A stretch of DNA of 64,000 nucleotides from Macrostomum lignano. Lineage: Eukaryota. The notes beneath the pieces were generated by a model. It did no database searches, was not told the DNA's origin, and was given only the letters and a program-made list of their open reading frames with translations. Shown in pieces: positions 44,357-63,074 of this stretch (the first letter of the stretch is position 1; the number at the start of each line of letters is the position of its first letter). The stretch spans positions 127,099 to 191,098 of the forward strand of contig NIVC01002232.1 in the NCBI GenBank assembly GCA_002269645.1, in the 5' to 3' direction. The position numbers were made by a program, and so were the translations under genes.

Positions 44357-44941
44357 AGTAGTAGTATGTTATAAGGGGCTGCGCCACACTTAATTGCTCG
44401 GGCGCATTGCGCGCCAGCTCGCTGGATGACTCAGCCCCTTATAACATACTACTACTACCAGGAGGTCATGGATTCAAGTGGGGGTGTGATAAATATAAAA
44501 ATACATATATCTGTGACTGAGGGTGTTGAGGGTGAGGGCATGTGGGGGCATTGGCCTGTGGAATATTTCACAGAACACAGAATTTCCGGAATTTTTATAC
44601 TTTTAAAAAGGGGGGGTGCCCTCGCCCTCATGCCCTCACTCATTTTGAAAATCACTAAAAACAGGTGAAAAATGACTAAAAACAGGTGAAAATGGTCTGA
44701 AAACAGCGATTTTTTGTAATTTTCAAAAATTTTGAAAAAGTGCAATTTTCACGATTCCAGCTCTAAAACCATGAGAAAAGTTGGATCCTCGGGTCAATTT
44801 AATGCAATTTCAGGTATATACAATATGAAAGTGTCATCCAATTCAACGATAGTAAATTATATATATATAAAATGGCCTTCAGTAAACCAATATTTCTAGG
44901 AAATGCTTTAGATATTCAGTCAGCTATAACAAAACTACCAC
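44357..44941 (+). repeat. Polinton left TIR
   Basis: Reverse complement of 62490-63074, with only a handful of differences, several in homopolymers. Confidence 0.95.
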
Positions 44942-45860
44942 CCATCTTTTCCACTGGAAAGTATCCTGGCGAATTTCATATTCCAGGGTATTCTTTCGCA
45001 AGCCAACAGCTCTGACTCACAATGCTGATGATGTATCAGAACCCCGTAACGTGGCACATTTTTGTCTATTTTTAGAACTAGAAAAAAATGAATGAAGCAA
45101 ACACAAAAGAATCTCAGACACACAGAGTGGGTGGCTCCACTGGAGCACAAAGGCAGCCTTTATTTCAAAGAGTTGTTTTCAAGGTATATACTAAGGTAAG
45201 TAGCGCGGAGTGAATGTTTGAATGATAATTGTCACTTTAAGTAGTAGCATGTCAATTTTTCTGGACGTCCAGAAAAAATTCTGGATATTTGTCTGCCATG
45301 TGTTTATTCATCAATAGAAGCGCTCCCCATTTCGCTAGTGGCTGCTTCAATCGTGTCGTTCTCTTCTTCATCAAGCATGCTGTCATCCTCTCCTTCAAAG
45401 TGCAGTACGATGTCGAGTTCGAGGCGGCATGCGAAATTCTCATCTTCTGATGCTCTTTGTTCAATTGCTCAAAGCAATATCCAGAAATTACCAGACTCGG
45501 GTACTTTGTTGTTAGCTTGTAGAATGTAAATAGTCGCTGGGCAAACTTCACATCTATATCTAGCTATCTTTTATCTTTTAACAAACACACACAAATAACT
45601 AGCATAACGTTTGAGAGTTGGTGAGTGTGCCAGTCCTGCATCAGCCTGTAAATTGTTGTGAAAGACAGCTAGCATGAGGGGTGCGCCTAGTGTCTTTTAT
45701 GAGTTGAATAAGGGGGTTTGATGAAGATGAAAAAACACTGAACTCCTGTGAGAGTCTCGGAGAGTGGCAGCGGAGTGTGGTGTGAGTCAGTCTCAATCTC
45801 TCAATCAGCGAAACCAGAATTCAAAAACCAGATTGTAACTGCTAAATTTTCCTAGAAAAA

Positions 45861-46202
45861 ATGGAAGCTAACCCAAATGTACGAAATGCACTGCCACAAA
45901 AGTATTATGATTCTATTATATATTTTTCTCAAATAAAAACACCCACTCGAAAGGCTCGACTAATTGAAGAAATTGATAAAGCCTACGATGAATATAAAGC
46001 AGAAATATTAAAACACAGCGATTGTAAATGCCCCCCATATTTGTATTCATTCAGAGTATATCTTGCACATGTTGATAAATGGGCATTGATTTCGAGACAG
46101 CACATAAGGAATGATGAATTTTTCGTCATGCTTAAGTTGAACATTTTCAAACTCCCCATAACCCTTGAGAAGTACATTGAAACTGATGAATTATATTGTT
46201 AA
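45861..46202 (+). CDS. Polinton hypothetical protein, 113 aa
   Basis: AAAAATG start; immediately upstream of the helicase. Confidence 0.55.
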   Translation: MEANPNVRNALPQKYYDSIIYFSQIKTPTRKARLIEEIDKAYDEYKAEILKHSDCKCPPYLYSFRVYLAHVDKWALISRQHIRNDEFFVMLKLNIFKLPITLEKYIETDELYC

Positions 46203-46218
46203 ATTTATTTTAAATAAA

Positions 46219-48687
46219 ATGGAAAGAAAAAATCAAAACGATTCAAGTTTCTCTCCTGTGATCGTACAGGATCCGCTTCAAAACCATGATGCCCCACCAC
46301 CGCCAAGATTGACAAATTTAAAACAAACAAAATCGTACGATAAACTAATTAATCTCTATGAAGAACTTAATTTTAGATTCGGAAGTTGCAGTGTAACATG
46401 GAATAGTAAAACAAAGAAAAAAATACCATCAGGAATGCCAACCAAAGCAGATAGGAATTCAACCTCACCACCATTTCGACCAGATGTAGACAACATGATT
46501 TGGATAGATACTAGAAACTCAAATATAACCGTAATCGATATTGATAATGCTGACCTATGCCCTGAGTTGAATGAACTGTGTATGACTCATTGTGATTGGA
46601 TTGTTCAGACAAACAAGGGACACCACTTTTACTTTAACAAGGTAGATGAATTGAAAGTAACGATTCAACAAAGTGTGGGTTTTGATATTCCCGCCTTAAT
46701 ATTTGCTCCACCAGGTTTCTATTATGTCGATGGTGAAATTAGGGAATACAAACGTACAAAGTCCAAATGTTTAATAGACATGCCAGATGTAGTTCTTGAG
46801 GAGATAAATAGATTAATTGAGCCACAGGATAAAAAAGAAAACCAAGAACCCGATAAACAGGCACTAAAAAGCACCGTTCCACCACCCACTTGTGAAGGAG
46901 CTTCAAAGTTGTTAAGTATAATACAACACAAAAACCAAGACTATGATTCTTGGTACAAGGTAGCACTTATACTCCGCGACATAGACAGTGGTGATGAAAT
47001 GTACAAAGTATTCACTGATTGGTCAAAAGTAAATTATGATAAGTTCGATTCCGAATCATGTAAAAATGTGTGGAATAGCACCAGTACCAGCTCTGCTGAT
47101 GCACAGGACAGACTTACTATCGGTACACTAAAGAAATGGGCAAGTGAAGAAAACTATAACAAATATAAGGAATGGAAAAGCAAATATGATTATTATGGTA
47201 GGATTGAGTTTCTTGATGATAATTTCACTGACGTTAATATAACCAACTTTGTTTATGAATATAAGAAGAATAATATAATTTACAATAGCGATGGTATTTA
47301 CTATTTTGATGATGATAAGTGGAGAGAACTAAGTAGTATAAATGACATATTTCTTAAAATATCACACCTTGTCAGCAGTGAGTTAAACCACCGAAAGACT
47401 AGACTCGAAATTGCAATTAAGAAGGCGGCTGATGATAAAGAGAAGTTAAAAGCACTTGAAAAGAAACTACAGAGTACAATGAAGAATATAAATTCAATAC
47501 AAGGAGCCAACAAACTAAAACAGGTAACTACTTTGTTCAAAGAGAGGTTTACTAACAATGAAATTGAATTCGACATGAAATGGAATTTGCTAGGGTTTAA
47601 CGATGGAGTATACGACCTCCTTACAGGTGAGTTTCGCGAGTATAGATATGACGATTACGTTACTAAATCGGTGGGATATAAATACTCGGATGTACTTAGA
47701 GTGAGTGATTACGACTATGGCTTCATTGTTAATCTGCATAACCAAATTCATCCCGATCAAGAAAACAGAAAGAGTTGGGAATCCGTTATAGCCACAGCTC
47801 TAATGGGTAAGAATGTTGAAAACTTTATAATGTTTGATGGCGCTGGTGGAAATGGCAAGGGAGTTGAGGACAACCTACTTCTTAGAACTCTAGGGTCTGA
47901 TTATGCAGCACCACTGAGTCCTGATGTTTTGAATTCACCAATAAGAATAGACAGGCCACAACCAGCCCTAGCACAAATTAATAAAAAGAGGTTGGTTATC
48001 AGTCAAGAAGTAAGTGGTGTCTTGAACAATGCATCAATAAAATTACTAACTGGTGGTGGGGTTATCCAAGCTAGAAATTTATATTCAAGCCAGTGTAATG
48101 TCGTTTTACACGCAACCCTAATAGTCGAATGCAACAACAAGCCTGACTTTAGACAAAATATTGGAGATGCAGAAAAAAGACGAATTATAAATATTAATTA
48201 CCCATGTAAATATACAACAGATACCGACATCATTGATCATGCGAAACACATTTATAAAGCCGATTCATATCTTAAAACCGAGGAATTTAAGAATAAATAT
48301 AAGTTTGCTGAGATGAAAAACCTACTAGAAATTTTCAAGCAAACAAAGGGTGAAATATATCGATCGAAAAGCGTAATTGAAAACACTAATGAATTCATAC
48401 AAAATTGTAATTGGTTTTCTCACTTCTTTGAAGAGAATTATGAATTTTTAGAAACTGAGGAAAAAACATTTATGCTTATTAGAGAAATTTACACTGCCGC
48501 AACAGAGAGTGAATACTATAGGACTCTAGCCCAACGTGAGAAACGTGAATTCCAACAACAATACATAACAGATTTCTTCAAGAATCACAAAGACTATTGT
48601 AAGTATTATAAGGATAGATATAGGCGTAGGATAGATGGTAAACAGCAAGAAACTAGAAATATTCTGTTTTACTGTGTAAAAAAATAA
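46219..48687 (+). CDS. D5-like primase-helicase (Prim-Pol, PriCT-like, D5_N, SF3 helicase)
   Basis: ITVIDID and QTNKGHHFYF (primase-polymerase); YDSWYKVAL..WSK (PriCT-2-like); LGFNDGVYDL (D5_N); Walker A GAGGNGKG; Walker B RLVISQE; motif C VECNNKP. Confidence 0.92.
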   Translation: MERKNQNDSSFSPVIVQDPLQNHDAPPPPRLTNLKQTKSYDKLINLYEELNFRFGSCSVTWNSKTKKKIPSGMPTKADRNSTSPPFRPDVDNMIWIDTRNSNITVIDIDNADLCPELNELCMTHCDWIVQTNKGHHFYFNKVDELKVTIQQSVGFDIPALIFAPPGFYYVDGEIREYKRTKSKCLIDMPDVVLEEINRLIEPQDKKENQEPDKQALKSTVPPPTCEGASKLLSIIQHKNQDYDSWYKVALILRDIDSGDEMYKVFTDWSKVNYDKFDSESCKNVWNSTSTSSADAQDRLTIGTLKKWASEENYNKYKEWKSKYDYYGRIEFLDDNFTDVNITNFVYEYKKNNIIYNSDGIYYFDDDKWRELSSINDIFLKISHLVSSELNHRKTRLEIAIKKAADDKEKLKALEKKLQSTMKNINSIQGANKLKQVTTLFKERFTNNEIEFDMKWNLLGFNDGVYDLLTGEFREYRYDDYVTKSVGYKYSDVLRVSDYDYGFIVNLHNQIHPDQENRKSWESVIATALMGKNVENFIMFDGAGGNGKGVEDNLLLRTLGSDYAAPLSPDVLNSPIRIDRPQPALAQINKKRLVISQEVSGVLNNASIKLLTGGGVIQARNLYSSQCNVVLHATLIVECNNKPDFRQNIGDAEKRRIININYPCKYTTDTDIIDHAKHIYKADSYLKTEEFKNKYKFAEMKNLLEIFKQTKGEIYRSKSVIENTNEFIQNCNWFSHFFEENYEFLETEEKTFMLIREIYTAATESEYYRTLAQREKREFQQQYITDFFKNHKDYCKYYKDRYRRRIDGKQQETRNILFYCVKK

Positions 48688-48708
48688 ACGAAGATGTTAT
48701 CAATGAGA

Positions 48709-51700
48709 TTACATTGGCTGATGAGGAATAGATCTGATAGGATCTAAATAATATCTTTTATCATCTAACGGACTCATTGTTTGTTTCATAATCTCACGAA
48801 TATATATTTTATTTTTTTCAGATACAGTCATACTTACTCTACCTCTTTGAATATCTTTGTAAACTGTCAATAGTATGTTTTTAAATGTTTCAAACTTTAT
48901 ATTTGTACTGCTTTTATCAACTCCCTTGATCTTAACACACTCTCCTGAAACTGTAGTGAAAGCATACTCCTTTGACCGCAGGAATACAGCTTCGGAAATT
49001 ATTGAGCCATTCATTTCATCTTTCAACTTTCCAATGACTTTCTTGTTCGTCTCGGAGTATAGTGGATGCTCTATTGGATAATCCGATGTGTCTAAGTGTT
49101 CTTTAATTTTTTTAAGATCCTGATAAACATCCTGAGTAATCACTGAGAATATTAGCGAATCACAATCAGAATAGTGCAATTGACAGCTGTTCCAATTCTT
49201 CTCAATAACATTGTAATAGCAATCGTACATTAGCATTTTTGCATAATCCAGAATAGCCATTCCTAAATAAATTGGCTTGTCACACGCAATTGTCTTTTTG
49301 TACATTTGGACACCAACTGCATCCTCACTAAACATAATGAAATCTTTGAAATTTGGTTTGGAAAAATAACGCCTTGCAGTTTTTTCTTCAGCTACAAGAT
49401 GAAAGTTCGACCTATTCTTTACATTTTCGATTGTTTTACCGTAGAATGAATTGTTCAGTAGTTTCCACAGGTCTTTCTCAAATTTAGTTTTTGCTTCCAT
49501 TCTCCGCCTGGTATTAAATTCGATGTATTTACTCAACCAGTTTGACTCTTTGAATGAAAGAATTCTATAAACTCTCGTAACTCGCATGCCCATCTTCTCA
49601 TAAAACTCAAGTAGTCTGTGATGTAAAACATATTTCTCCTTGTTGTAAAATGTCAACATCAACTTGGATTGAACAAACTTTTTCTTTTCGACTTCAAGAT
49701 ATTGCTTCTGTATATCAGATAAATCCTCAAACCTAGTTGTTCGTTTCTCAGGAGCCAGTGGATATTTACTTGTAGCTTTCTTACATTCCTCTGTATATTC
49801 AAGGTCAACTTCAAGAAAACAACCCCTGCCATTAGGAATATTCTTGTGATACTCTAGATCATTTTCAAACTTGAAATCTCCCACAGGTAGATTTTTCATC
49901 ATTGCTTCACCATATAAATTATTCTTGTCCAAGTATAGCATGTACGACGATTCAGAATTGCTGTCATAATTTTCTAAATACTTATTGTTCATTTTTTTAT
50001 ATCGATCTCCAAGAACTCCAGAGAAACCACCGCGAATACCACTTTCTACCATGGATATCATTTCTTTATCACCAAGTAATTCCAATTCCACATTAGTATA
50101 TTTCAACCCACATGCCCAAGATAATCCAGAAAGGGAAAAGCAATACGCAGGATCTATCTTGAAATATTTCAAAAATGTTGATCGAAACTTCTCAAAAGCG
50201 TTGACAAATGAGTAAATCTTTCTAATTACTGCGTTGTATCACTGGGTGGCAAATATTTTATTTCTTCTTTAGAGAGTGTAAATGGTGGTTCCAAAAACCT
50301 AGATCCATCTAAAAACACAACACCACTGGTATAATTCCCCAACTTAATTGCAACATGGTCTTCCGATGTTTTAGAAATAAAATCCAATATTATTTTTTAT
50401 TATTCATTCGTGTTAATGGAGCTATCAAATAGTTTAGATCTTTTCCAGATTCATTCAGGAGAAACAACGGTACTGTTTGATTCGCCTTGCCCTCTTGGTA
50501 TTACATGATTGACATGCTGCGCCGCGATATTTACCATTGTAGTGATTATGCTCTCGAATTTTTTTACTATCTACAAATGGCCTTGAGCAGAGAAAACATT
50601 GTTCTGCCGCTTTGTAATCAGTCTCTTCGACATCACTTAATCTTGGATGTTTATATCTATCCATTTCATTTTTTATATGCTCAAACTTTTTGATTACGGT
50701 TTCAACGAATGATTCCACTGTAGTATTTGAAATAATATCTGATTTTATAATGTCCTCATAGTCGGAACTAGTAAAAAGTGTCCATTGTGATAGCTCTAGT
50801 GATTTATCATCCATCGTTACATAATCTAATATTGCATAAAACACAAATGGTTTTCTTACACTCATGTGGTAGTTTTTAAACTTTAATATCCTCTTATCAA
50901 TCTTTGGAACTTCAATTGACACTTTGAAGTCAGTACAGATTGCTTTATGATTATCCAGTGCATCCTGGGAGTATTTAACTTGAAGACACTTTCGACAAAG
51001 AAAAACCCTGTTGTAATTTTGGGACGTGAGGAATAAACACAAGTCTGTTATTAAACAATAATGATTTTTGACAAGTAGTAAATCAATAACATTGGGGTTG
51101 TCGTAATCTTCTGTCAGACGAATAGAATATATTGACTCTTTAGTATTTATATCCCTTAATCCAAACACATTTATATGAAGACTGTTCAACTTTTCAATCT
51201 CAGAGATATCTCGAATGTCCACTGGAAATTTAACGTCTCCTAAGTTTATTTCATTTATATACTGTGTATACTTACCAACTCTATATCTATGTTCCTTCAC
51301 AGGATGGAGCTTTGCTAAAATAGACCAGAGAAAGCACCTATTGTCTGTAGTGTTCTTAACATTTACTAATGCGTTTGATTTAATTGGAATTGGAATATAA
51401 GTTCCTCCTTTCAACTGATTAATGCCAACAACTTTCAACACAATCTTTACTAACTTAACAAAATAATATCCCGATCCCCTTTCATTAAAACTATCCTTCC
51501 ATCCATCGAATTCATCCAGAACATCCTGAATTGTACTTTCTATACTAGTTTCCACTTGGAGAAGATTTAACAAAGTTCGATACTTTGAATGATATTGGAA
51601 CTCAATCCAACTGTCGGTAGTTCCTTTATAAAATTCTGCGACAAAGGAAATTCTGTATTTTATTGAATCTCTAGCCATCAAATATTCGGAAAGAATTGGG

Positions 51701-51773
51701 GAGATTAAACCGCGAATTTCTTCAACGGAGTCGAGATCAATTCATAAGAGGCCGCTGGTATTTTCCTTTCCAT
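48709..51773 (-). CDS. polB: Protein-primed family B DNA polymerase (pPolB), split by several frameshifts in this sequence
   Basis: Motif A YLDKNNLYG, motif B KLLNNSFYGK, motif C YSDCDS. The N-terminal ORF (50455-51681) carries an endonuclease VII-like CxxC..EHNH..GKYRGAACxxCN module. The linker at 50172-50455 changes frame. Confidence 0.92.
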
Positions 51774-51798
51774 TTTTAAGAAAAAAAATTAAACAGAC

Positions 51799-52539
51799 TC
51801 AAGCATAGGGGGGTGCACTTGGAGCATTTGATTGAAGATTGAGTGTTGCCGAGTACTCTTTTGGCTTATCAGCTAGACCCAATTTTTCTCTCAGATCTTT
51901 CTCCAGCAGTTCCTTTTTAACTTTTTCCTTCGCTGAATTATCAAGTCTACTCTCTTTGAGGATTTTATCAACGAATTCCGAATGGTTAACTTCTTCAGGC
52001 GCAACACAGGTGTCTAACAATTGGTCTCTTTTCTCTCTGTATTCTGAATAAATTGCAGCAGCTGCTTGAACCTCTTCAAGAGTTAATCTATAATCATCAA
52101 CTGCTTTTTGGGAGTAAATATACAATCTCTCTCTGTATTGATTTGCCAGATCTCTGAGAACAATGTATTTTGCCTTCTGCTTTTGGCAATGCATTTTCAC
52201 AGTTGCAAACAACGACGTGGATTTTACAGCTTCAAAACCACTCATTGCCCCGATTACTACTCCAATAACTAAGGGATTCAATGTCAGTATCGATGTTGCT
52301 ATGCCAATTCCTGTAGCAGCCAAGAGACTTACATTTCCTGTCACAATGTTGATCCAATTTATCCTGCTACTTTGTCGTTTGTACTTTTTTACCTTTTTGC
52401 TATAAATTGTAAGATCTTTAGTAATGCATTCAATACTGCCTTTGATTTCACCCTTTCTCTGATTGAAATAGTCCCGCTCCCTCAAATCTGCTTCATGCAG
52501 CTCAACCACAGGATAGATGTGTTCATTTTTTTCATTCAT
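51799..52539 (-). CDS. Polinton membrane protein with hydrophobic hairpin, 246 aa
   Basis: TAAAAATG start. Basic helix followed by two Gly/Ala-rich hydrophobic segments. Resembles a recurrent accessory gene of animal Polintons. Confidence 0.7.
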   Translation of the reverse strand: MNEKNEHIYPVVELHEADLRERDYFNQRKGEIKGSIECITKDLTIYSKKVKKYKRQSSRINWINIVTGNVSLLAATGIGIATSILTLNPLVIGVVIGAMSGFEAVKSTSLFATVKMHCQKQKAKYIVLRDLANQYRERLYIYSQKAVDDYRLTLEEVQAAAAIYSEYREKRDQLLDTCVAPEEVNHSEFVDKILKESRLDNSAKEKVKKELLEKDLREKLGLADKPKEYSATLNLQSNAPSAPPYA

Positions 52540-52541
52540 TT

Positions 52542-53950
52542 TTATGTGGCGATTATGTCTAAAATCGGATAAAGTTGAAAGCCTGAAACTATAAGAACAG
52601 TTGATCCTTCAGTGGTTGAATTAATATGCACTCTATAAACAGAGAATTTTTCGGTGGAAGCTACTTCGAAATACTTCATCACTCCAGGAACTAAACCAGC
52701 GTTTTCGGTAGAAAAAATATTCTTAAAGTCTCTCTTGTTATTGCTTCCTTTCAGAATAAAAATTTTTGGTTGATTTTTTATAATTTCACTACCCACTGCT
52801 TTGGTTCCTTTCAACCCGAATTTCCAAATTCGAATGGACTCGGGAAGTTGTACTTCAATGTAAGAATTGGGTTCATTCCTCGATGCCCATTCTGAATTAG
52901 ATACTACATAACCCCAATTATCTGACGTTTCAAATGCTCCTGATGACGCTACATTGAAACCCCTTTCTCTATAGTTTTGACGTGTTGCTAGTGGGGAATA
53001 TATCCTGTATAAGATTTGAAACCTAGTCCCCGCCTTAGTCGCAGCTCCACTGATTCAAGTGCATTGTCTACGTATAGCTTTGGTACAGCTTGAAGTCTAT
53101 CTATAGGCCACACTAAATCATTAACCACTGTTTGTCTCTCAAGTAATTCAACTTTTGTAAGCTTTACGGAACCAGAAAAATTAAGAGAATAATGGAAATA
53201 ATATGAGGGATTGGGTATTTTTTTCCTAAGATGTGCATTGCCTCTTCGTAGTTCAATGGGTGCACTTTGTTCAACAGGTGTCCAGTTTGTTCCATTTAGG
53301 CTCACACTAACAGACCAACCAGGCCACACCTCTCCTTCCAACTTTATCTCTACAACTTTCCTAGCTCTTTTCAGAAATTGAACTCGTATCCACTTGTCTG
53401 AGTCATCTACACTGCTCCATTCTGAAGCTGGGTTTGAATCTGCAACATGATATGCTGCTGAAGAGTTATGAGAAGCGGTCACTTTCATGTCAGGATGGGA
53501 AGCGTTTGAAGTCAGTAATGAAAGAATATTGACTAATTTCGAACTCTCTGTACCTCCCGCAGTACCTTGCCTTTCTGCTAACAAAGTGTCAATCTCAGTT
53601 TTAGAATACATCTTAGTGTCAATCTCAGTTTTAGAATACATCTTAGTGTCAATTTCGGTTTTAGAATACATCTTAGTGTCAGTTTCGGTTTTTGTGTAGA
53701 CATTGTTTACGCGCCCATGAGCATCGTCAATTAATTGTAGCATGGTGATATTCATTGCGTCACTATCTTCCTTTGAATAAGAGTCTGAAACATTTCTCTT
53801 TGCTAACAATAAATTATCTATTTCCTCTCTCTTATATCCTTCATTTTCATTGATGTATCGATCATCAGCTAACGCTATTGTTATTCCAGGTGCTATATCA
53901 TTTGAATTTGACGAGTAACCAAATTGATTGGCAGTATTCTTGTAACTCAT
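52542..53950 (-). CDS. Putative fibre/receptor-binding protein with two discoidin (F5/8C)-like domains; one frameshift near 52995
   Basis: (YSKTEIDTKM) 30-bp repeats, then two beta-rich modules (AS..W.S..D..WI.V.F; WAS..NSYIEVQLP..FILKGSN). Adding one C in the CCCC run near 52995 joins ORFs 52988-53950 and 52542-52814. Confidence 0.6.
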
Positions 53951-54378
53951 TTTAATTGCTGCAAAATTTCATTATAGCTATCTCCTTTATCGATTCGGTG
54001 TAAAAAGTACAGCGACATTTGACCACAAAATTTCTTATCAAAAGTTTGAATTTGTTCTTCCATGTCTCCACATATTCTATTCTTTGTGTGATTAAACTTT
54101 TCCATAATTTCCAGTGTGGGCGGTAGTGCATAGGAATCAAAAAAATAAACCTTATCAGGAGCTGAAAATATAGCTGAATGATGTATACCCCGTTCTTTCG
54201 AAGTGTGAATATTTGTCATAAAGTAACCATACTGTGGTAAATCAACAATTTCATCTCTCATGGCATAGCGAAATGGTTTTAACTTGAGATATTTTGCCCA
54301 ATTTATCAGATCAATATTAGTCGTAGTGTCAGTCCCAAACTTTTGTTTAAATGCATTCCATGTCTCAGCTTCGCTCAT
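53947..54378 (-). CDS. Adenain-like cysteine maturation protease (PRO)
   Basis: GIHH, YFFDSYALPP, QIQ...FCG: His, Asp, Gln and Cys catalytic positions present. Confidence 0.9.
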   Translation of the reverse strand: MSEAETWNAFKQKFGTDTTTNIDLINWAKYLKLKPFRYAMRDEIVDLPQYGYFMTNIHTSKERGIHHSAIFSAPDKVYFFDSYALPPTLEIMEKFNHTKNRICGDMEEQIQTFDKKFCGQMSLYFLHRIDKGDSYNEILQQLK

Positions 54379-54387
54379 TTTTAACAC

Positions 54388-55177
54388 TCATATTTGTCGT
54401 ACGTGTAGATTTATAAATATTTCCTCGCCATCAAAGTCGTATAGAACACCAGACTCATCTTCGATGACAAAGTCGAATGTGCTCAACATGTTTGTAGTTA
54501 GTGGTAGGTACACAGGATTTGCAGGCTCTTGAATAATTTTACTTCCCATTGGGACAGAGAACGATGGAATTGAAAGAAGTATTTGCTTATCAATTAAATG
54601 ATTTCCATTGGCTGGATCAGTGATAAAACCCCCTTTGATATTGAGACAACGAACCATGATCGCACTTCTAGCTCCGTCTATCCGAGCTGGATTTGGAGCT
54701 CTCTCAAATGGTTTCAAATACACTTCCGAATTGAATCCCAACAGTCTTCTAAAGTTATTGGAATGTGCATCCCTGAAATCAACTTGATACTCTGTGGCTA
54801 ACCGTAACTCAACTCTACGCGTGTCTAGGCTTGCACTGAAAACAATAGCCCCTCTTTCCAATCATTTGCAGCTGTTAGCAATCTTTGAATCTCGCTTGAC
54901 AGACTTTTAACTTCCCAAGATCCTGCTTGAATCTTTATTTTTTCCATGTTCTACCACTATCCCTCGAGTATCGCAACTCATTATTGCCTCCTTCAATATT
55001 GTTAATAGCATCAAAGACTGCAAACTTTTTTATACCAGCTTCGTATTCTCGATCTTCATACAAATTTATAGGAGTGCCTAGAGTTTGTCGAAATGGGTTT
55101 TTAATTGAAAAGAAGTCAAATGTGCGTTGAAACTTTTTACTCAAGAGGATGTTGACTTTTTCTATTTCTTTTTCCAT
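54388..55177 (-). CDS. Minor capsid protein (penton, single jelly roll); frameshift near 54900-54935
   Basis: N-part PINL..YEAG..NNIEGGNNELRYS.D.G.TW; C-part P.GSKI..P.NPVYLPL..IEDESG.L.DF.GE.I.I.LH. Located between ATPase and protease. Confidence 0.8.
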
Positions 55178-55179
55178 TT

Positions 55180-55909
55180 TTAAGCAAGTAATTCTGCTAG
55201 CTCTTTATCAACATTGTTATGTCCCTCTGCTTTTGCGGCTAGTAATGTCAACACTCTTTCACTGAGTCCAGATCCCGGTTTTACTCGATATCCTGGTGGA
55301 TTATCTTTCAATATCCTTACTGCTTGCTTATAATTCCCACTTGATTTGGCCGCTGGATTTTTACATGTTCAATGAGGTTAACATAATCCTGCAATGTTTG
55401 CATCTTGAATTGCTTCAGCTCTTCACCATTTTCAGTTACTTTAGGCATTTTGAACAACTCTTCAAGATCTTCAGAAAATGGCATTCGAATTCGTTGACAA
55501 TGATGTCTCGACCTTGTTCATGGAATTCAACATCTATTACAGATGATCCAAATATATATCCAGCATCAGTTTTTTGAATCCGTATACTAGGCGCTGGTCT
55601 TTGAGTTATTGGAATCTTTCCAATTTCTTCAATTATTTTGTCAAATACTTCCAGAGGTTCAAATCGTCCTTTTGGTGTACTTGATTGCGGAACTGGAACT
55701 TTTTGATTCTGAAGTTTATCAACAAGGTTGGCATTGACATCAATAAATTCATCGAGCTTTTCTGTGACAGGTTTTTGAGCTAATGGAGCCACTCTTGCAT
55801 ATAAACTCTCTTCTCCAATTTTCAAATAGCGTTGAGCATCATTTCTGGATTTGTACGTTTCTCGCTGCTTTGCTAAATTAATGAGTTCTCTTATATATTC
55901 ATTAGTCAT
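55180..55909 (-). CDS. Conserved Polinton hypothetical protein (frameshifted)
   Basis: ORF 55436-55909 continues in other frames to GSGLSERVLTLLAAKAEGHNNVDKELAELLA*. The C-terminal L..R..LL.A..AG.N pattern recurs in Polintons. Confidence 0.55.
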
Positions 55910-55911
55910 TT

Positions 55912-56685
55912 TTACAATGGGATTTTAGTTAGAACATCCTTATACAAATCTTGCTCATCCTCATCAGCTCTTGTATTTATATAGATATAGCCATACTTCT
56001 TTTTCCAAGCCTCTCTACATTTAGCCTTGAATATAGCGGGTTCATAATTCGTTTCTATATTTCTAGCAATGTGATTCAAGTTTGTATCTTTTTGTTTAAA
56101 GATTATGTAACATGTCGTATTCTCCCTGACAGTATTGCGATCTAGTTTGGTAAAATTTTGAGCTAGATAAAAACCACAACAGTTTCCATGCCTGCCTCTC
56201 TGAAACAGACTTTCCTGAAATGTTTGATTAGCCTCTCCCAAAACATCGTCCAATATCACACATGTCTTTAGTCCATTATGAAAAATTTCTTCATTTGGAG
56301 TATGGGAAAGAGTGACAGGAATTTTCTCTATTACTTCTGAATTTTCTGATGTGCTTTGCACTCGACCAGGGTTGGCTGCCTCTCGACAAATATGTCTAAT
56401 ATCTTCAGGAGATGCATCCTCACTCACCTGGTAGACATGATAGAGTGAGTTGATAAGAGAAGGTGGGAGACCATTTTCAAAGCCATATTTTAGAAACTGA
56501 TACTCTGGATCCATTTGAGATGCTCTGGGAACATATAAAACTAACTCATTAAAGTCAACTAGTTTTTCAGGACTTGTAAGAATATGGAATAGTAAATATG
56601 TTTTACCCGTATTTGTAGCGCCGATAATACAACATAAAAGAGGATTAGGGAAAATAGGATCATGCTGAAATTTTACTTTGGGCAT
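55912..56685 (-). CDS. A32/FtsK-like DNA packaging ATPase
   Basis: Walker A IIGATNTGKT, Walker B VILDD, RGRH motif, F(Y)LAQ. Confidence 0.93.
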   Translation of the reverse strand: MPKVKFQHDPIFPNPLLCCIIGATNTGKTYLLFHILTSPEKLVDFNELVLYVPRASQMDPEYQFLKYGFENGLPPSLINSLYHVYQVSEDASPEDIRHICREAANPGRVQSTSENSEVIEKIPVTLSHTPNEEIFHNGLKTCVILDDVLGEANQTFQESLFQRGRHGNCCGFYLAQNFTKLDRNTVRENTTCYIIFKQKDTNLNHIARNIETNYEPAIFKAKCREAWKKKYGYIYINTRADEDEQDLYKDVLTKIPL

Positions 56686-56706
56686 TTAAAAAAAGAAAAA
56701 ATGACC

Positions 56707-58071
56707 TTATTCGACGCGGGTCATTTGATATTCACTGGTAACTTTTATTACATTCTTTGTTTGTTCAAGAATTAGTGCAAAAGCAGTCAGCTCAACATTT
56801 GTTGACTTCTTGATAAATAATTGAATATTCACTCCACTCTTGACCAGAAACTCATCTTGAGCTGTTAGATCAAAGCAAAAGATTGGATAGATGGTTAGAA
56901 AGTCTTGTTTATTGAATGGAGGAGTTACACCGAAACGGCTGCAGATGTCTTCGTACATTTCATACGCTCTGTGAATGTCTTGAGCTACTGGATCAATTTC
57001 AACATAATCATTCGGATACATCACCTGATTTAATCTGACTTGAAGCTGGGTTATTTTCACTGCATTTGCTCCAGTTTTGTAAGACACATACTTGTGATCA
57101 TTAACTATATATGATGGGTTGTTTACGTCATATTTGAAAGCTACAAAGATTGCAAGTGGCATATTGGAGATGTTGGCTATGTTCCATGTATATGGACTTC
57201 CTTGAATGAGTTGTGGTGGAACCGTTACCCTCTCTGGAAATGATACTGTAATGTCCTTGTTGAGTGATTTTAGAAAAGCTGCTTCAGCACTGGGTGACAA
57301 AGTAATAGCAGGGATCCAAATCTCAAAGCTATTAATAGTTAACTTAGCTTCCGTCCCGGCAGCTCCAAAGAAAATTTCAGCATCGTTAGTCTTTCTTGTC
57401 CATGTGAATTTATATTTAATTCCTTTGCTAATCTTCTGCCAATCAAGGAACCCAATGAGAGGTGTTAATGATAGTTTGATTGTTCCACCTCTGTTTGGAG
57501 CATTAGTGACATTGTTATAATTTTCAAGCCTCCTAATGTATCCAGTATTCGAATCCTTCTTATTGAGTCTATTTTTCATAGCGATTGCTGCAGTTCTCAC
57601 AGCTTCAGCATCTGCGTTGTTTGCTAGAGGTATATCAGAAACAGTCCCAGCATCTCCAGTGTCTGGAATCCATCCGTATGCTTCTCCAACTTCATTCATT
57701 AATTTTGAGTACATTACGGACTTTAAGATTGTGTCATACTCTCCAGGATCATTATAGACTTTCTTTGTTCCTCCAATGTCAACTATGAGTTGAGAGAAAA
57801 GTCTCATAGGCCAATTATGTTCTAGAGTAATGTTCGTATTCAAGTCGGTGTTATCTCGTTGTGTTATTGAGTATTTTATACAACCGAATGCCTCTGACAT
57901 GAGAATGTATGACTCTGTTGAATTGACTTCATGAACTATTTGACCTCCTGCAACATTGAGATTATTAGTGCTACCTGGAGTTGGAGAAATCTTAATATAG
58001 TCTTCTTTCTTTTTGAAAAAGCTAAAAGTTTTGTCCTCATATATGCTCAGTATATCCTTTTTGTTCTCCAT
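56707..58071 (-). CDS. Major capsid protein (double jelly roll), 454 aa
   Basis: Size, position and beta-rich motifs typical of Polinton MCP (I...P.....LN..G.QI..EV; PLAIFVAF; YPIFCFDLT). Intact ORF. Confidence 0.85.
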   Translation of the reverse strand: MENKKDILSIYEDKTFSFFKKKEDYIKISPTPGSTNNLNVAGGQIVHEVNSTESYILMSEAFGCIKYSITQRDNTDLNTNITLEHNWPMRLFSQLIVDIGGTKKVYNDPGEYDTILKSVMYSKLMNEVGEAYGWIPDTGDAGTVSDIPLANNADAEAVRTAAIAMKNRLNKKDSNTGYIRRLENYNNVTNAPNRGGTIKLSLTPLIGFLDWQKISKGIKYKFTWTRKTNDAEIFFGAAGTEAKLTINSFEIWIPAITLSPSAEAAFLKSLNKDITVSFPERVTVPPQLIQGSPYTWNIANISNMPLAIFVAFKYDVNNPSYIVNDHKYVSYKTGANAVKITQLQVRLNQVMYPNDYVEIDPVAQDIHRAYEMYEDICSRFGVTPPFNKQDFLTIYPIFCFDLTAQDEFLVKSGVNIQLFIKKSTNVELTAFALILEQTKNVIKVTSEYQMTRVE

Positions 58072-58114
58072 TTTTATAAGAGAAATTTCAACTAAGCTTC
58101 ATGAGGTCTAAGAA

Positions 58115-58543
58115 TTATCCCATTACCCTGTTTCTCCTTTTCAACTTTAAAGTCTTTAGCAGCCACTTGACTGCTTCGCTGGGTACTTGTTCGACTCTTT
58201 TAGCCGCATCAACTAATACTCCACTCCCTTGAGCCTTTTTCAACTCTTCTAGTTTTTGCCGTTCAATGCTTTCTATTGTCTTATTATGTTTAGCATTGTT
58301 GGCTGTATTAACACTTTTTGCAATCATTGTACCAACTCCTGAGGCTGCTCCGATACCACCCAAAATTGCTGGTAGTAAGCCTAATAGAGGAATTATTCCA
58401 CCTTCATGTTCTTTCTGTTTCTCTTGCAATTCTCGAATCTTCTCTTTAGAAAGATATTGCTTTTGCTTATTTACAGTAACATATCTTGGTTTTCCCTCTC
58501 GAACATATCGATTGAGTCTTGCTTCAGTGTTTTTCTCGCTCAT
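58115..58543 (-). CDS. Basic core/membrane-lytic-like virion protein, 142 aa
   Basis: EGGIIPLLGLLPAILGGIGAASG: GG-type protease cleavage site followed by an amphipathic segment, as in Polinton and adenovirus core proteins. Confidence 0.65.
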   Translation of the reverse strand: MSEKNTEARLNRYVREGKPRYVTVNKQKQYLSKEKIRELQEKQKEHEGGIIPLLGLLPAILGGIGAASGVGTMIAKSVNTANNAKHNKTIESIERQKLEELKKAQGSGVLVDAAKRVEQVPSEAVKWLLKTLKLKRRNRVMG

Positions 58544-58551
58544 TTTTAAGG

Positions 58552-58974
58552 TCAGAATTTCTTCAAACCATTGCCTTGTCTCAAAGACACTTGAGACTGT
58601 TCTGCTGTTCCTAGAGCCTTTTTAACAATATCTTGAATAGCCTTATTTGATTGAGAAGCTATCTGTTGCTCTTCTTCCATTCTTTTCTTTGCTTCTTTAT
58701 CTCTACGTTTCTTTTTAATATATTCCAGTTCCTCACCTGCTTTAGACATGTCACTGTATGATTTCTTCGCATCGAATATGTTCTTCGCTGTGGTAGCTGT
58801 TTTACCTATTGCATCAGCTCCACTCACAATTTTACTTCCATGATTTGATAAAAAGTTTGTGACACCACTGATCATATCACCAATTCCTTCACCCTCTTTA
58901 TCAGCTAGTAGTTGTGAATCAGACGTTTCAATCTGACCTTTCGCCCGTTTGCAGTTTGTTCGATAGGCGCTCAT
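58552..58974 (-). CDS. Putative virion core protein (GEG cleavage motif), 140 aa
   Basis: AAAAATG start at 58974; EGEGIGDMISGV..amphipathic helix; GNG near the C-terminus. Confidence 0.6.
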   Translation of the reverse strand: MSAYRTNCKRAKGQIETSDSQLLADKEGEGIGDMISGVTNFLSNHGSKIVSGADAIGKTATTAKNIFDAKKSYSDMSKAGEELEYIKKKRRDKEAKKRMEEEQQIASQSNKAIQDIVKKALGTAEQSQVSLRQGNGLKKF

Positions 58975-61173
58975 TTTTAGTTGAAAAATTTGCTGGTAGA
59001 AGCTGGGATTTGTAAAATGATCCAATGATTTCTTCTCCATTCTCATCCTCAATAATGTAGGTTATGGGATTGGAGTAAACTATTTTCTTTATCCTAAACA
59101 CTTCTGAAATTTTCCAATATCCTCTTCGACCCTTTTCAAAGTGCTCCTTATATCTATAGATATGAACTTTGTCACCTACTTTGAAGTTTGGTTTCTCATT
59201 TGAATACTCGAAAGTTGGCTTTGGTACTCGCTCAGGATGTTTAGATGCTTCTGAAGGAGTTATCAGAATCTCAGAATGGATTGTGTTGTTGTATTTTTCA
59301 ACAATAGCTGGCAATGTGTGGAGCCACTTCTGATTACCCTGTAGATCAAATTCAAACCAGAGTTTATTTGTGAGAGTACGATTGAACCTCTCAATCATTG
59401 CATTCTTGGACTCGCCATAAATTGAAAACATCTTGTTAATATATTCACCCCTTTCATCCTTCTTTCTAATGTTGTCTTTTGAAAACGAGTATAGCTTGTA
59501 CATATGCTGATTATAAAACTCCTTGCCTTCATCTACACAAAGTCTCTCTGATCGTCTTCCTGATTCCTTAAATACTTTTTGGAAAGCTTCTGCAACTTCC
59601 GCTCCCGTCTTTGTTTTCAAAGGAACTGCCCAGGCGTAACGTGTAAAACCATCTATGATAGTTAGAGCATATTTGTAACCTCTTTCGGGCGGTAGGATAA
59701 TGATATCTGCATGCCAAATTGTGTCTTTTGCATAGTGAATCATTTTTCTAAATACTCTTGGCTTTCGATATTCTTTATGCAATTTTACTGCATCTTCATA
59801 GCTAAGACCCTTACCATAAATTGTTAGACAGTCTATACAATTGTTGGGGTTGTGAGTATGAATGCCTAATCCAAACCGAACTTTAGCCTTGATAATACGC
59901 TTTACTAGATTTCGAATGAGTCTCTCTTTCACAGACAAGTCACTGGTTGGAATAGCATCTAAATCAGCTATCATTTTTTCATCAGCTATATGCTTCTTTG
60001 CTAGAGCTTCCTCTGGATTTGAAGAAGTGTTTTCAGCATCTCTATAGTTTTTGTCATGATAGTAAGCAGTCCAATCGATTGGGTTAATTGGTAGACTGTC
60101 ATACCGAGGCCGGTCTGTAATTGGATTGAGTCTCTTGTCTAAATTTGTACCGGCAGTTGATCCTCAGTCTTTCGAAAGAGGCTGGACTTTATCTTAAGGC
60201 ATCATCAGGATTGACCAGATCCTTCAGCCCCACCTCCATAAAGTCTCTGAACCTTCTCCATATCCTTGTCAACTTTAATGGACGTACCATAGGTACTCGA
60301 TCAAAGATCGGACTTAGGAGCTTGGCTGCGGATTTCCACCATGTCCTCAAGCTTGTTACCGTTGGGAACAGGAATTACCTGTGTTCCTTCAGAAGATTTC
60401 TCAGCTGAAGTGGTACTTGAGGCTATTGAAGGAGTTCCCGCAATTTGAAGGTGTCGCCATTCACTAAGCACTTGTTTAACCTTGGTTATAATGTTTGTGT
60501 ATTTATCCCGATAAAGAAATTTCAATGCAAATTCTCCTGTTAAGGGTGATTCCATTGTCTAGTAAAATATTCTTAGGTTCGTTTGCAGTTTTATTGATGC
60601 ATACATAAAACAACTGGTAGGTGGGATTAGACTTTTTATAGTCTAATAGTTTCCGATAGTTACTTTCACGACTTGAGGAATTGTCTGTGTTATCAGAAGA
60701 TTTAAGCTCTAATGCAATCTTTCGCTCAACGTGAACCAGGTCAATCTTTTTTACCTTTTCGAATCCAAAATATTTTTCTGCTAAAACTTCATATAGTCTA
60801 CCTAGTCTCATTTGAATAACTTTAATCTTGTGTGAAATTATTAGCTCTTCTTGAAATAAATCGCAAAGAATTTGGTCATACCCCACCTTGTCGTCAATTG
60901 GTTTCAAGAGAATTTCTCGAATTTTTTGCTCCATTTTTACTTTAAAAATTTAACAAGTGCTTATCGATCGCCCTGAAGGGACGCGAGCTCTGCTCGATGA
61001 CTAGCAAGGACATTGACTTTCCTCACTCAGGCCACAAGGTAACCTGCAAAAGAATACCCTGGAATATGAAATTCTCCAGGATATTTTCCAGTAGAGAAGA
61101 TGGGTGGCAGTTTTGTCATAGCTGACTGAATGTCTAATGCAGAACCAAGAAATAGTGGTTTATTGAAGGCCAT
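58928..61173 (-). CDS. int: PLA2-like domain fused to retroviral-type DDE integrase; two exons (61173-61041 and 60153-58928) split by a group I intron
   Basis: Exon 1: MAFNKP...GEFHIPGYSFAG. Exon 2: GTNLDKRL...PINPIDWTAYYHDKNY (PLA2 HD motif), then the integrase core WHAD, IDGFTRYAW, VDEGKEF, IERFNRTL. The join is in frame (1359 nt). Confidence 0.88.
60154..61040 (-). ncRNA. Self-splicing group I intron, subgroup IC1
   Basis: P AAAUUGCGGGAA (60435-60446); Q AAUCCGCAGC (60325-60334); R GUUCAGAGACU (60242-60252); S AAGAUAAAGUCC (60184-60195). P3 ACCUUC/GAAGGU; P4 UGCGG/CCGCA; P7 GACUUUA/UAAAGUC. P5a-like GGUAACAAGC. P1 CAGGU/GCCUG with a U.G pair; terminal G at 60154. Confidence 0.93.
60503..60934 (-). 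CDS. Intron-encoded putative PD-(D/E)xK homing endonuclease (probable frameshift near 60540 extends the C-terminus)
   Basis: QMRLGRLYE...IDLVHVERKIALELKSSDNTDNSS: D-x9-E-x-K restriction-fold signature. Lies inside the intron between P1 and P3. TAAAAATG start. Confidence 0.68.
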   Translation of the reverse strand: MEQKIREILLKPIDDKVGYDQILCDLFQEELIISHKIKVIQMRLGRLYEVLAEKYFGFEKVKKIDLVHVERKIALELKSSDNTDNSSSRESNYRKLLDYKKSNPTYQLFYVCINKTANEPKNILLDNGITLNRRICIEISLSG

Positions 61174-61440
61174 TTTATAGAGATTTTTTTATTTCTTTAT
61201 TTTTACTTGTAAAGTGTTTGTATACATTCCATTGAGTACTTAATAGACTGAATTTTAAGACAAGTCGAGACAATAATCCAAAGCGACATGTTACACAAAA
61301 CAGATCGCTGATAAAAGATCTTGGTATATTTTAAAAGAAACTTATAAGACGATGCATAACAATCCTTAGTCACAGTCACAATGACAATCCTTAGTCACAG
61401 TCCTTACAGTCCTCCTTAGTCACAGTCACAGTGATAGTCC

Positions 61441-61857
61441 TTAGTCACTCATGTCTTGGTCTTGAGCAGCTTGGTCTTGAGCAGCTTGGTTTTGAGCAGC
61501 TTGGTCTTGAGCAGCTTGGTCTTGAGCAGCTTGGTTTTGAGCAGCTTGTTGTTGAGCATCCTCGTATGTCGGAGGTGCCTCTGGAACGTCTACATCTAGC
61601 GAGCGCTCGATTTCTAGTTGGCGTTGATTTTCTAAGATAGAACGATCCTTCGCAATGGTTTTTTTAACTAGCCTAAGCATCGCAATGTCGTTCTCAATTT
61701 TGTCGAAGTATACGCGATAATGCTCAAGGAATTGATTCTCATTTGTAGACGTGACGAAGCTAGTATTGGGGTATTGTGTGTGAATCAAACCTCTCAAATT
61801 GTTTCTCTCTTGTGTGTTCACAAGTATTCTAGCACGCCTAGTTGGATTTCCGGGCAT
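61441..61857 (-). CDS. Polinton hypothetical protein, 138 aa, with PPTY motif and (QAAQD/N) 15-bp repeats
   Basis: ORF track; coiled-coil-like middle region. Confidence 0.5.
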   Translation of the reverse strand: MPGNPTRRARILVNTQERNNLRGLIHTQYPNTSFVTSTNENQFLEHYRVYFDKIENDIAMLRLVKKTIAKDRSILENQRQLEIERSLDVDVPEAPPTYEDAQQQAAQNQAAQDQAAQDQAAQNQAAQDQAAQDQDMSD

Positions 61858-62489
61858 TCTGTTCGTTCGGAATGAAAACTGATAATTTAAGCAGAGGACA
61901 CTTGTTGCGGATACTATTTTGGGTATGCCCTTAAATGCTGTCTAAAATGTCTTATGCCAGCCGCTAATTGGTTGCCACTGCCCTGCCACTGCCCTGCCAC
62001 TGCCCTGCCACTGCCTTGCCACTGCCCTGTGGCAGTGACAGATTTTTTCTCTCTAGAGTGAGTGAGTAGCAGTGTGTTATACGGGCTGAGTCATCCAGCG
62101 GCAGCGAGCTGGCGCGCAATGCGCCCGAGCAATAAGTGTGGCATTGAAGTGGGTTGCAAATGCATGCTGTAGCAGCTTGGAGGGGAGTTGATGAATGGCT
62201 GTTCGCAGCTAATCTAAACCTTTAATTCTTTGCATGATGCTGGAGGGTTTTTGAGTGAGTCAGAGAGAATAGAAGACAGAGGTGATGAAGATATGGAAGA
62301 AGCCATGATTCTTAGTCATCGTGATAACAATGCTGTCTACAATTCGAATACATTCAGTCCACAGGGTGAAGGAGAATTTTGCAATTCAGAAGTAATTCTA
62401 TTGTGCAAAATCTGCATCAGAATTTATTCATGTTTCAGCAAGCCAATAGAAATGTTGAGTGCTGCTTTTCATTGTTGCAGAGTTGACAA

Positions 62490-63074
62490 GTGGCAGTTTT
62501 GTTATAGCTGACTGAATATCTAAAGCATTTCCTAGAAATATTGGTTTACTGAAGGCCATTTTATATATATATAATTTACTATCGTTGAATTGGATGACAC
62601 TTTCATATTGTATATACCTGAAATTGCATTAAATTGACCGAGGATCCAACTTTTCTCATGGTTTTAGAGCTGGAATCGTGAAAATTGCACTTTTTCAAAA
62701 TTTTTGAAAATCACAAAAAATCGCTGTTTTCAGACCATTTTCACCTGTTTTTAGTCATTTTTCACTTATTTTTAGTGATTTTCAAAATGAGTGAGGGCAT
62801 GAGGGCGAGGGCACCCCCCCCTTTTTAAAAGTATAAAAATTCCGGAAATTCTGTGTTCTGTGAAATATTCCACAGGCCAATGCCCCCACATGCCCTCACC
62901 CTCAACACCCTCAGTCACAGATATATGTATTTTTATATTTATCACACACCCCACTTGAATCCATGACCTCCTGGTAGTAGTAGTATGTTATAAGGGGCTG
63001 AGTCATCCAGCGAGCTGGCGCGCAATGCGCCGAGCAATTAAGTGTGGCGCAGCCCCTTATAACATACTACTACT
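62490..63074 (-). repeat. Polinton right TIR
   Basis: Reverse complement of 44357-44941. Confidence 0.95.

What the first reader, a model, noticed from the sequence alone, without database searches (positions are those of the whole stretch)
60466..60962. Restriction-fold (PD-(D/E)xK) endonuclease ORF looped out of the ribozyme's P2.1
Seen in sequence: the 143-aa ORF is bracketed by a perfect 11-bp inverted repeat (AAGCACUUGUU at 60962-60952 and AACAAGUGCUU at 60476-60466), itself inside the CUAGUC...GGCGAC P2.1 arms, so the ORF is extruded from the catalytic core. It has D-x9-ELK plus N-T-x-N-S-S. Established knowledge: nuclear IC1 introns usually carry His-Cys box homing endonucleases, and PD-(D/E)xK homing endonucleases are known from bacterial introns (I-Ssp6803I). 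Inference: a new intron-endonuclease pairing that homes to the conserved PLA2 loop of intron-less Polintons. The ORF has the same TAAAAATG start as the viral genes, suggesting it is expressed like a viral gene. A frame switch near 60540 gives a plausible longer C-terminus (TGEFALKFLYRDKYTNII).
Basis: partly seen in the sequence, partly recalled or inferred. Interest (0 to 1): 0.82.

Follow-up and report, generated by a model that had tools for sequence, protein, structure and literature searches.

The report
Restriction enzyme turned viral intron's nuclease
A virus-like element in an animal genome carries a group I intron with a restriction-enzyme-like gene inside it; the element has no GGNCC words and the intron sits exactly where a conserved Gly-Pro would spell one, so the enzyme likely cuts intron-less rivals there and would help the intron spread.

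Summary
Real, and stranger than reported. The ORF is an Eco47II-family PD-(D/E)xK nuclease (Pfam over cut-off; predicted fold closest to EcoO109I, Z 10.4). It lies in the L2.1 loop of a group I intron that interrupts the Gly|Pro of the PLA2 loop in a Polinton PLA2-integrase gene, in an animal genome. The window copy is broken; 15 of 30 sister loci have unbroken frames that run on into the ribozyme core. Distant giant-virus relatives sit beside C5 methylases; no such methylase was found in the Polinton stretches held. Instead GGNCC, the word Eco47II is assigned to, is the most depleted of 256 words in the element (0 against 19 expected). Gly-Pro codons always spell GGNCC; intron-less copies keep the word at the insertion site and the intron splits it. 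A sister Polinton family has the same nuclease free-standing beside ORF-less introns at the same site, alternating with an HNH-like gene. A third family without it shows only mild depletion. Best reading: a restriction enzyme domesticated as a homing or competition nuclease, made single-site by purging its word. Cleavage, splicing and homing are untested.

The parts
44357..63074 (.). Polinton (Maverick) element, family A, with long terminal inverted repeats starting AGTAGT and a 6-bp target-site duplication
   Evidence: capsid PF21738, ATPase PF04665, integrase PF00665; primase-helicase
61042..61173 (-). Exon 1 of the PLA2-integrase gene; ends on the Gly codon of the PLA2 G-P-G loop
   Evidence: intron-less copy L056 hits PF08398 at E 3.9e-9
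60154..61041 (-). Group I intron (IC1-like), 888 nt, from the base after the 5' splice-site U to the terminal G
   Evidence: ends fixed by comparison with intron-less copies; Rfam RF00028; covariation
61003..61046 (-). P1 (with U-G pair at the splice site) and P2 hairpins
60952..60963 (-). 5' arm of the 12-bp P2.1 extension that closes the ORF loop
60465..60476 (-). 3' arm of the P2.1 extension; also coding in unbroken copies
60503..60934 (-). Eco47II-family PD-(D/E)xK nuclease ORF as it reads in the window (broken near 60541); E49, D65, E76, K78 are the inferred active site
60301..60555 (-). Second frame that holds the last helix of the nuclease and the read-through over P3-P6
60154..60464 (-). 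Ribozyme core P3-P9 with P5b and P5c hairpins
58928..60153 (-). Exon 2: rest of the PLA2-like domain (HDxxY) fused to the rve integrase

Best explanation
The ORF encodes a restriction-enzyme-fold nuclease, likely descended from a giant-virus-type restriction-modification system and predicted to cut GGNCC, that lies inside a group I intron of a Polinton and would act as its homing or competitor-cutting enzyme. Shown: the fold and family; the intron's position between the Gly and Pro codons of the PLA2 loop; the near-total absence of GGNCC from the two Polinton families that carry the nuclease; the presence of the word at the insertion site in 18 of 20 intron-less copies examined; no related methylase in the element stretches held. 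Inferred: the elements protect themselves by purging the word. Gly-Pro codons spell GGNCC whatever the codon choice, so at this conserved loop the word can be lost only by changing the protein or by an intron that splits it in DNA and is spliced out of the RNA. A short-site enzyme thereby becomes nearly single-site among these viruses. In a co-infected cell it would cut an intron-less genome at the PLA2 site, and repair from the intron-bearing genome would copy the intron (nested form, family A) or the intron and the adjacent free gene (collaborative form, family B), or the rival would simply be lost.
For: Pfam RE_Eco47II 28.2 bits, cut-off 25.9. Model pLDDT mostly above 85 over residues 1-160; best structure match EcoO109I by Foldseek (E 2.9e-5) and VIA-align (Z 10.4, rmsd 3.8, 164 aligned; next other protein 6.2). 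EcoO109I cuts RG^GNCCY (PMC3089450, passages); an Eco47II homologue is assigned GGNCC 'without certainty' (PMC10305163, passages). GGNCC: 0 against 19.0 in the window element, rank 1 of 256 with the next word at 0.70; 0 against 61.0 in 7 intron-bearing A elements; 9 against 112.4 in 10 B elements; 115 against 149.5 in 7 elements of a third family. Gly-Pro 0 against 6.2 expected in 14 window ORFs, Pro-Gly 7. Word at the site in 15 of 17 intron-less A copies and 3 of 3 intron-less B copies; none in the gene region of 37 of 37 nuclease-bearing B copies. E49, D65, E76, K78 invariant in 40 of 40 unbroken copies; dN/dS 0.10-0.36 in 10 of 11 pairs with a value. C5 methylase within the locus in 10 of 10 viral loci and 8 of 11 metagenome loci, none in the 22 Polinton stretches. 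Nuclease and HNH-like gene are mutually exclusive in one slot and need 16 changes on the integrase tree, 9 forced by well-supported branches; one pair differs by 2 of 900 bases. In A, fixed differences between intron and no-intron copies lie only at -6, -4, -1.
Against: No cleavage, splicing or homing was observed. Purging is family-wide: B copies with the HNH-like gene and intron-less A copies avoid GGNCC too (13 against 49.8 in 5 A elements), so an outside enzyme, such as a helper virus system, could be the cause. Copies within a family are not independent, so the purge is about two observations. GGNCC is mildly low everywhere (window flank 57 against 124 raw, 57 against 77.5 after masking tandem repeats; 30 third-family loci 114 against 190). 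A GGNCC cutter would also cut host DNA, which sits badly with gentle homing unless it is kept from chromatin. Scattered labels on trees can come from ordinary recombination; in A the well-supported branches force only one change. The -6 to -1 differences may reflect P1 pairing rather than co-conversion. One close pair has dN/dS of 1 (1 and 4 changes). The nuclease tree puts the free B gene inside a clade of intron-nested forms (support 98/92 and 95/87), against a simple free-then-nested order.
Confidence: 0.58

Rival explanations
1. Weapon, not homing: the enzyme cuts GGNCC in host, helper-virus or rival DNA wholesale, and the intron only gives self-immunity at the one site that cannot be recoded; intron spread is a by-product of ordinary recombination.
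For: Short-site family; no extra DNA-binding domain in the 160-aa fold; other Polintons and host DNA hold many sites; the free form alternates with another nuclease-like gene.
Against: Repeated nesting inside the intron in at least two reading frames is what a mobile intron-nuclease unit predicts; near-identical backbones exist with and without the intron.
Confidence: 0.22
2. A classical long-site homing endonuclease on a restriction fold, like I-Ssp6803I; GGNCC depletion comes from an outside restriction system, for example of a helper giant virus.
For: Intron-encoded, at a conserved protein site; giant viruses do carry this restriction-modification pair; depletion is also seen in copies without the nuclease.
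Against: The depleted word is the one assigned to this enzyme's own family; a third Polinton family in the same genome is far less depleted; flanks of the site vary widely among nuclease-bearing copies.
Confidence: 0.14
3. A passenger: a once-active gene now carried in the intron loop without function.
For: The window copy is broken; about half of the A loci and 12 of 37 B genes are broken.
Against: Invariant active-site residues, dN/dS well under 1, 15 unbroken A and 25 unbroken B frames; homologues across many data sets.
Confidence: 0.06

Closest known systems
Eco47II/Sau96I-family and EcoO109I type II restriction endonucleases (PF09553; PDB 1WTE)
   Same: Family hit over cut-off, best fold match, E...D-x10-E-x-K motif, predicted GGNCC core; giant-virus relatives at about 30% identity lie beside C5 methylases.
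   Different: No partner methylase found in the elements; encoded in an intron or beside one in an animal virus-like element; self-protection appears to be by site purge plus intron.
[quoted passage not shown]
   Same: Free nuclease next to an ORF-less intron at the presumed target (family B), and the composite nested form (family A).
   Different: Both states occur in one eukaryotic genome; the enzyme is of restriction type; the tree does not show the free form as ancestral.
I-Ssp6803I, PD-(D/E)xK homing endonuclease of a cyanobacterial tRNA intron (recalled, no call)
   Same: PD-(D/E)xK nuclease inside a group I intron.
   Different: Recalled as a tetramer with a site of over 20 bp in bacteria; here the evidence points to a 5-bp word, a protein-coding viral host gene and an IC1-like intron.
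Group I introns in protist Polinton-like viruses (PMC12220804, passages read)
   Same: RF00028 introns inside Polinton-like elements.
   Different: Reported only in a few protist groups, 309-376 bp, upstream of the capsid gene, with no nuclease assigned; here an animal host, a PLA2-integrase gene and an encoded nuclease.

Membership tests
Eco47II-family type II restriction endonuclease | Profile match above Pfam cut-off | tested here: met
   28.2 and 27.3 bits against 25.9 for the window ORF and L002; B and L091 forms score 18.8 and 18.5, below cut-off
Eco47II-family type II restriction endonuclease | PD-(D/E)xK fold with conserved acidic and lysine residues | tested here: met
   residues invariant in 16 of 16 aligned proteins and 40 of 40 copies; catalytic role inferred
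Eco47II-family type II restriction endonuclease | Cognate C5 methylase encoded alongside | tested here: not met
   no tblastn hit of the L084 methylase in 22 Polinton stretches, several of them partial elements; present in 18 of 21 outside loci
Eco47II-family type II restriction endonuclease | Cuts GGNCC | not testable with these tools
   indirect only: word depletion
Group I intron | P3-P7 core, P1 with U-G, terminal G | tested here: met
   Rfam 82.6 bits; 19 of 43 pairs change on both sides, 96% of cells paired, 0 of 500 shuffles as high (structure drawn by me on the window sequence)
Group I intron | Self-splicing or spliced transcript | tested here: inconclusive
   one low-depth contig in run X5 joins the exons at the 5' splice site, but the run is not on record as RNA and an intron-less allele would look the same
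Subgroup IC1 | P2, P2.1 and P5abc extension | tested here: inconclusive
   P2, P2.1, P5b and P5c are present; no subgroup models on hand; the subgroup definition is recalled
Homing endonuclease | Encoded in or beside the mobile intron | tested here: met
Homing endonuclease | Target is the intron-less allele and is destroyed by insertion | tested here: inconclusive
   holds if the site is GGNCC; the site is predicted
Homing endonuclease | Long recognition site of 14-40 bp (recalled) | tested here: inconclusive
   word depletion and family point to 5 bp; not measured
Homing endonuclease | One-way gene conversion with co-conversion of flanks | tested here: inconclusive
   scattered labels and a short tract of fixed differences, also explicable by recombination and P1 pairing
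Polinton/Maverick | Terminal inverted repeats, 6-bp duplication, rve integrase, capsid, ATPase, protein-primed polymerase | tested here: met
   the polymerase (48709-51681, in pieces) was named by eye from motifs, Pfam did not name it

The most novel reading that the evidence does not exclude
A new route to mobility: a methylase-less type II restriction enzyme with a 5-bp site works as a homing endonuclease because the virus family has purged that word from its whole genome except where the genetic code forces it (Gly-Pro), and a group I intron occupies exactly that spot. Free-standing and intron-nested stages, and a rival HNH-like gene, coexist among animal Polintons.
Probability: 0.5. Interest if true: 0.92.

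Novelty: new variant of a known kind. Interest (0 to 1): 0.8.

Why it matters
It would link restriction enzymes and homing endonucleases by a simple, testable mechanism (site purge instead of a long site or a methylase), give a eukaryotic case of the free-nuclease and ORF-less-intron stage so far described in phages, and place group I introns in virus-like elements of an animal nuclear assembly. It also implies that these Polintons meet and recombine as active viruses. The predicted site can be tested with one digest.

Tried and rejected
Sequence search of PDB with the alignment found nothing. I-Ssp6803I was not among the listed fold matches; that excludes nothing. The wide VIA search was not run. 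No match in phage records. The one prokaryote-collection hit is a weak partial one. A viral scan with the L091 exon found nothing. No RNA holder listed; contigs laid on the second B intron showed no joint across it. Rfam did not score the short B introns; they were identified by alignment and covariation instead. Loss of the intron through cDNA as the source of intron-less A copies was rejected, as they differ at -6, -4, -1. A 4-bp palindrome as target was rejected, none is strongly depleted. The scan's earlier findings held nothing. The Bonocora and Shub paper was not held. Literature searches (listings, with passages of seven papers read) showed no report of this pairing; subscription papers and supplements (for example the intron tables of PMC12220804) were not seen and could bear on novelty.

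Full report
Setting. The window holds an 18.7-kb Polinton at 44357-63074: long terminal inverted repeats, a 6-bp target duplication, capsid, packaging ATPase, rve integrase and primase-helicase. The genome has many Wnt genes, so the host is an animal. Some genes appear in pairs, so copy counts below may include both haplotypes.

The intron. Rfam finds a group I core at 60523-60163 (82.6 bits). Comparison with intron-less natural copies fixes the ends at 61041 and 60154, between the Gly and Pro codons of the PLA2 G-P-G loop of a PLA2-integrase gene. P1 and P2 fold locally. On 13 introns from families A and B and contig L091, 19 of 43 core pairs change on both sides and 96% of cells pair (I drew the structure on the window sequence, and rows are related). 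In the ORF-less B intron the same arms close a short P2.1 hairpin, so the ORF sits in loop L2.1. L091 has a different stem sequence at the same place.

The ORF. It hits Pfam RE_Eco47II above cut-off. The window copy is broken near 60541. Of 30 loci fetched from 41 DNA matches, 15 have unbroken frames of 211-233 aa that read on into the ribozyme core (L005 and L006 were not parsed and carry a stop; L007 has a 200-aa frame from another start). A model of a natural copy is confident over residues 1-162 and disordered over the read-through. Its best match is EcoO109I, which cuts RG^GNCCY (PMC3089450, passages). The atlas gives restriction-enzyme clusters as leads. E49, D65, E76 and K78 are invariant. 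dN/dS is 0.10-0.36 in 10 of 11 pairs with a value; one close pair gives 1 and one is saturated.

Relatives. Of 15 close homologues, 9 read into a ribozyme core in one of two frames, 2 end with the domain and 4 are short. L091, at 50% identity, has the same nested layout at the same PLA2 site. A profile search finds 310 representatives. Ten viral loci at about 30-35% identity, four of them labelled as giant-virus genomes, have no group I intron and all lie near a C5 methylase; one protein is fused to it.

A second family. Family B is about 63% identical in PLA2. I classed 108 of about 138 B matches: 82 have an ORF-less intron at the same site, 23 a second intron type, 3 none. The nuclease stands free just upstream of the gene in 37, all with an intron. 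In 69 of the other 71 an HNH-like gene fills the same slot, never both (HNH by motif and a weak atlas lead). With only 3 intron-less copies, their lack of the nuclease is not significant. The slot label needs 16 changes on the integrase tree. The nuclease tree places B inside a clade otherwise made of nested forms, so the order of events is open.

The word. An Eco47II homologue is assigned GGNCC without certainty (PMC10305163, passages); Sau96I as GGNCC is recalled. GGN-CCN is Gly-Pro. In the window element GGNCC occurs 0 times against 19.0 expected under a second-order model, lowest of 256 words with the next at 0.70; it also ranks first in the four other A and B elements tested. Pooled: intron-bearing A 0 of 61.0, intron-less A 13 of 49.8, B 9 of 112.4, a third family without the nuclease 115 of 149.5, flanks 248 of 295. 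Gly-Pro is absent from 14 window ORFs (6.2 expected); a synonymous-codon null gives zero in 0.4% of runs. Intron-less copies carry the word at the splice site in 15 of 17 A and 3 of 3 B; the two exceptions encode Gly-Gln. The 3 of 28 intron-bearing A loci with the word in the gene region all have broken nucleases (about p 0.09 by hand, suggestive only). Caveats: copies are not independent, mild depletion is general, and copies without the nuclease are purged too.

Mechanism. The elements appear to survive their own enzyme by lacking its word, with the intron solving the one site that the protein fixes. Cutting of an intron-less rival at that site, then repair from the intron-bearing genome, would give homing. 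Support for homing is indirect: near-identical backbones with and without the intron, and fixed differences only at -6, -4 and -1. One low-depth contig joins the exons at the 5' splice site but cannot tell RNA from an intron-less allele. I give 0.58 to this reading, 0.22 to a pure weapon, 0.14 to a long-site homing enzyme with an outside cause of depletion, and 0.06 to a passenger.

Comparison and novelty. It works like a mobile group I intron and, in family B, like collaborative homing (PMC3984707, passages). By sequence and fold it is a member of the Eco47II restriction family, but it fails the methylase test, and it is not shown to meet the long-site test of homing enzymes. Group I introns are reported in protist Polinton-like viruses without an assigned nuclease (PMC12220804, passages). 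PLA2-like genes are known in animal Polintons (PMC8502044, passages). Passages of PMC11296320 and bioRxiv 2023.08.22.554363 describe other nucleases only. Nine searches of the held library found no report of this pairing. Verdict: new variant of a known kind, with an even chance of a new mechanism; interest 0.8.

Noticed in passing
family B loci, e.g. L071:1350, L073, L074: 59 of 82 ORF-less B introns end in A rather than the canonical terminal G, yet the core is conserved.
   Followed up: partly
L077:990-1323, L072, L075: A second intron type at the same PLA2 site, with a divergent P4-P6 and an unclear 3' splice site; 23 of 108 copies; switches with the first type 10-12 times on the tree.
   Followed up: partly
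L137:487-1053, L148:488-1102: Free-standing zinc-finger plus HNH-like gene in variable forms, alternating with the restriction-fold gene in one slot.
   Followed up: partly
family B elements (L221-L240): CCNGG is also depleted (0.31-0.43 of expected), a possible trace of another nuclease.
   Followed up: no
L068, L069: Intron-less copies with Gly-Gln in the PLA2 loop, which removes GGNCC: possible escape alleles.
   Followed up: partly
window 60960-60990, 60270-60310; L025, L026, L010, L131: Short hairpin-like inserts of about 30 nt occur in several intron loops and near gene starts in different copies.
   Followed up: no
window 62490-62560 and 44861-45000: The terminal repeats include a copy of the PLA2 exon 1 start (88% match over 140 nt), and each terminus holds an internal palindrome.
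   Followed up: no
window 61441-61857: 138-aa ORF with QAAQ repeats upstream of the PLA2 gene, no Pfam match.
   Followed up: no
window 50455-51681: N-terminal part of the polymerase region carries an Endonuclease VII domain (PF02945).
   Followed up: no
P0018: A more distant homologue appears to read into a ribozyme core in a third frame (by eye).
   Followed up: no
L241-L270, L301-L314: A third, larger Polinton family with PLA2 domains (at least 150 matches) and only mild GGNCC depletion.
   Followed up: partly
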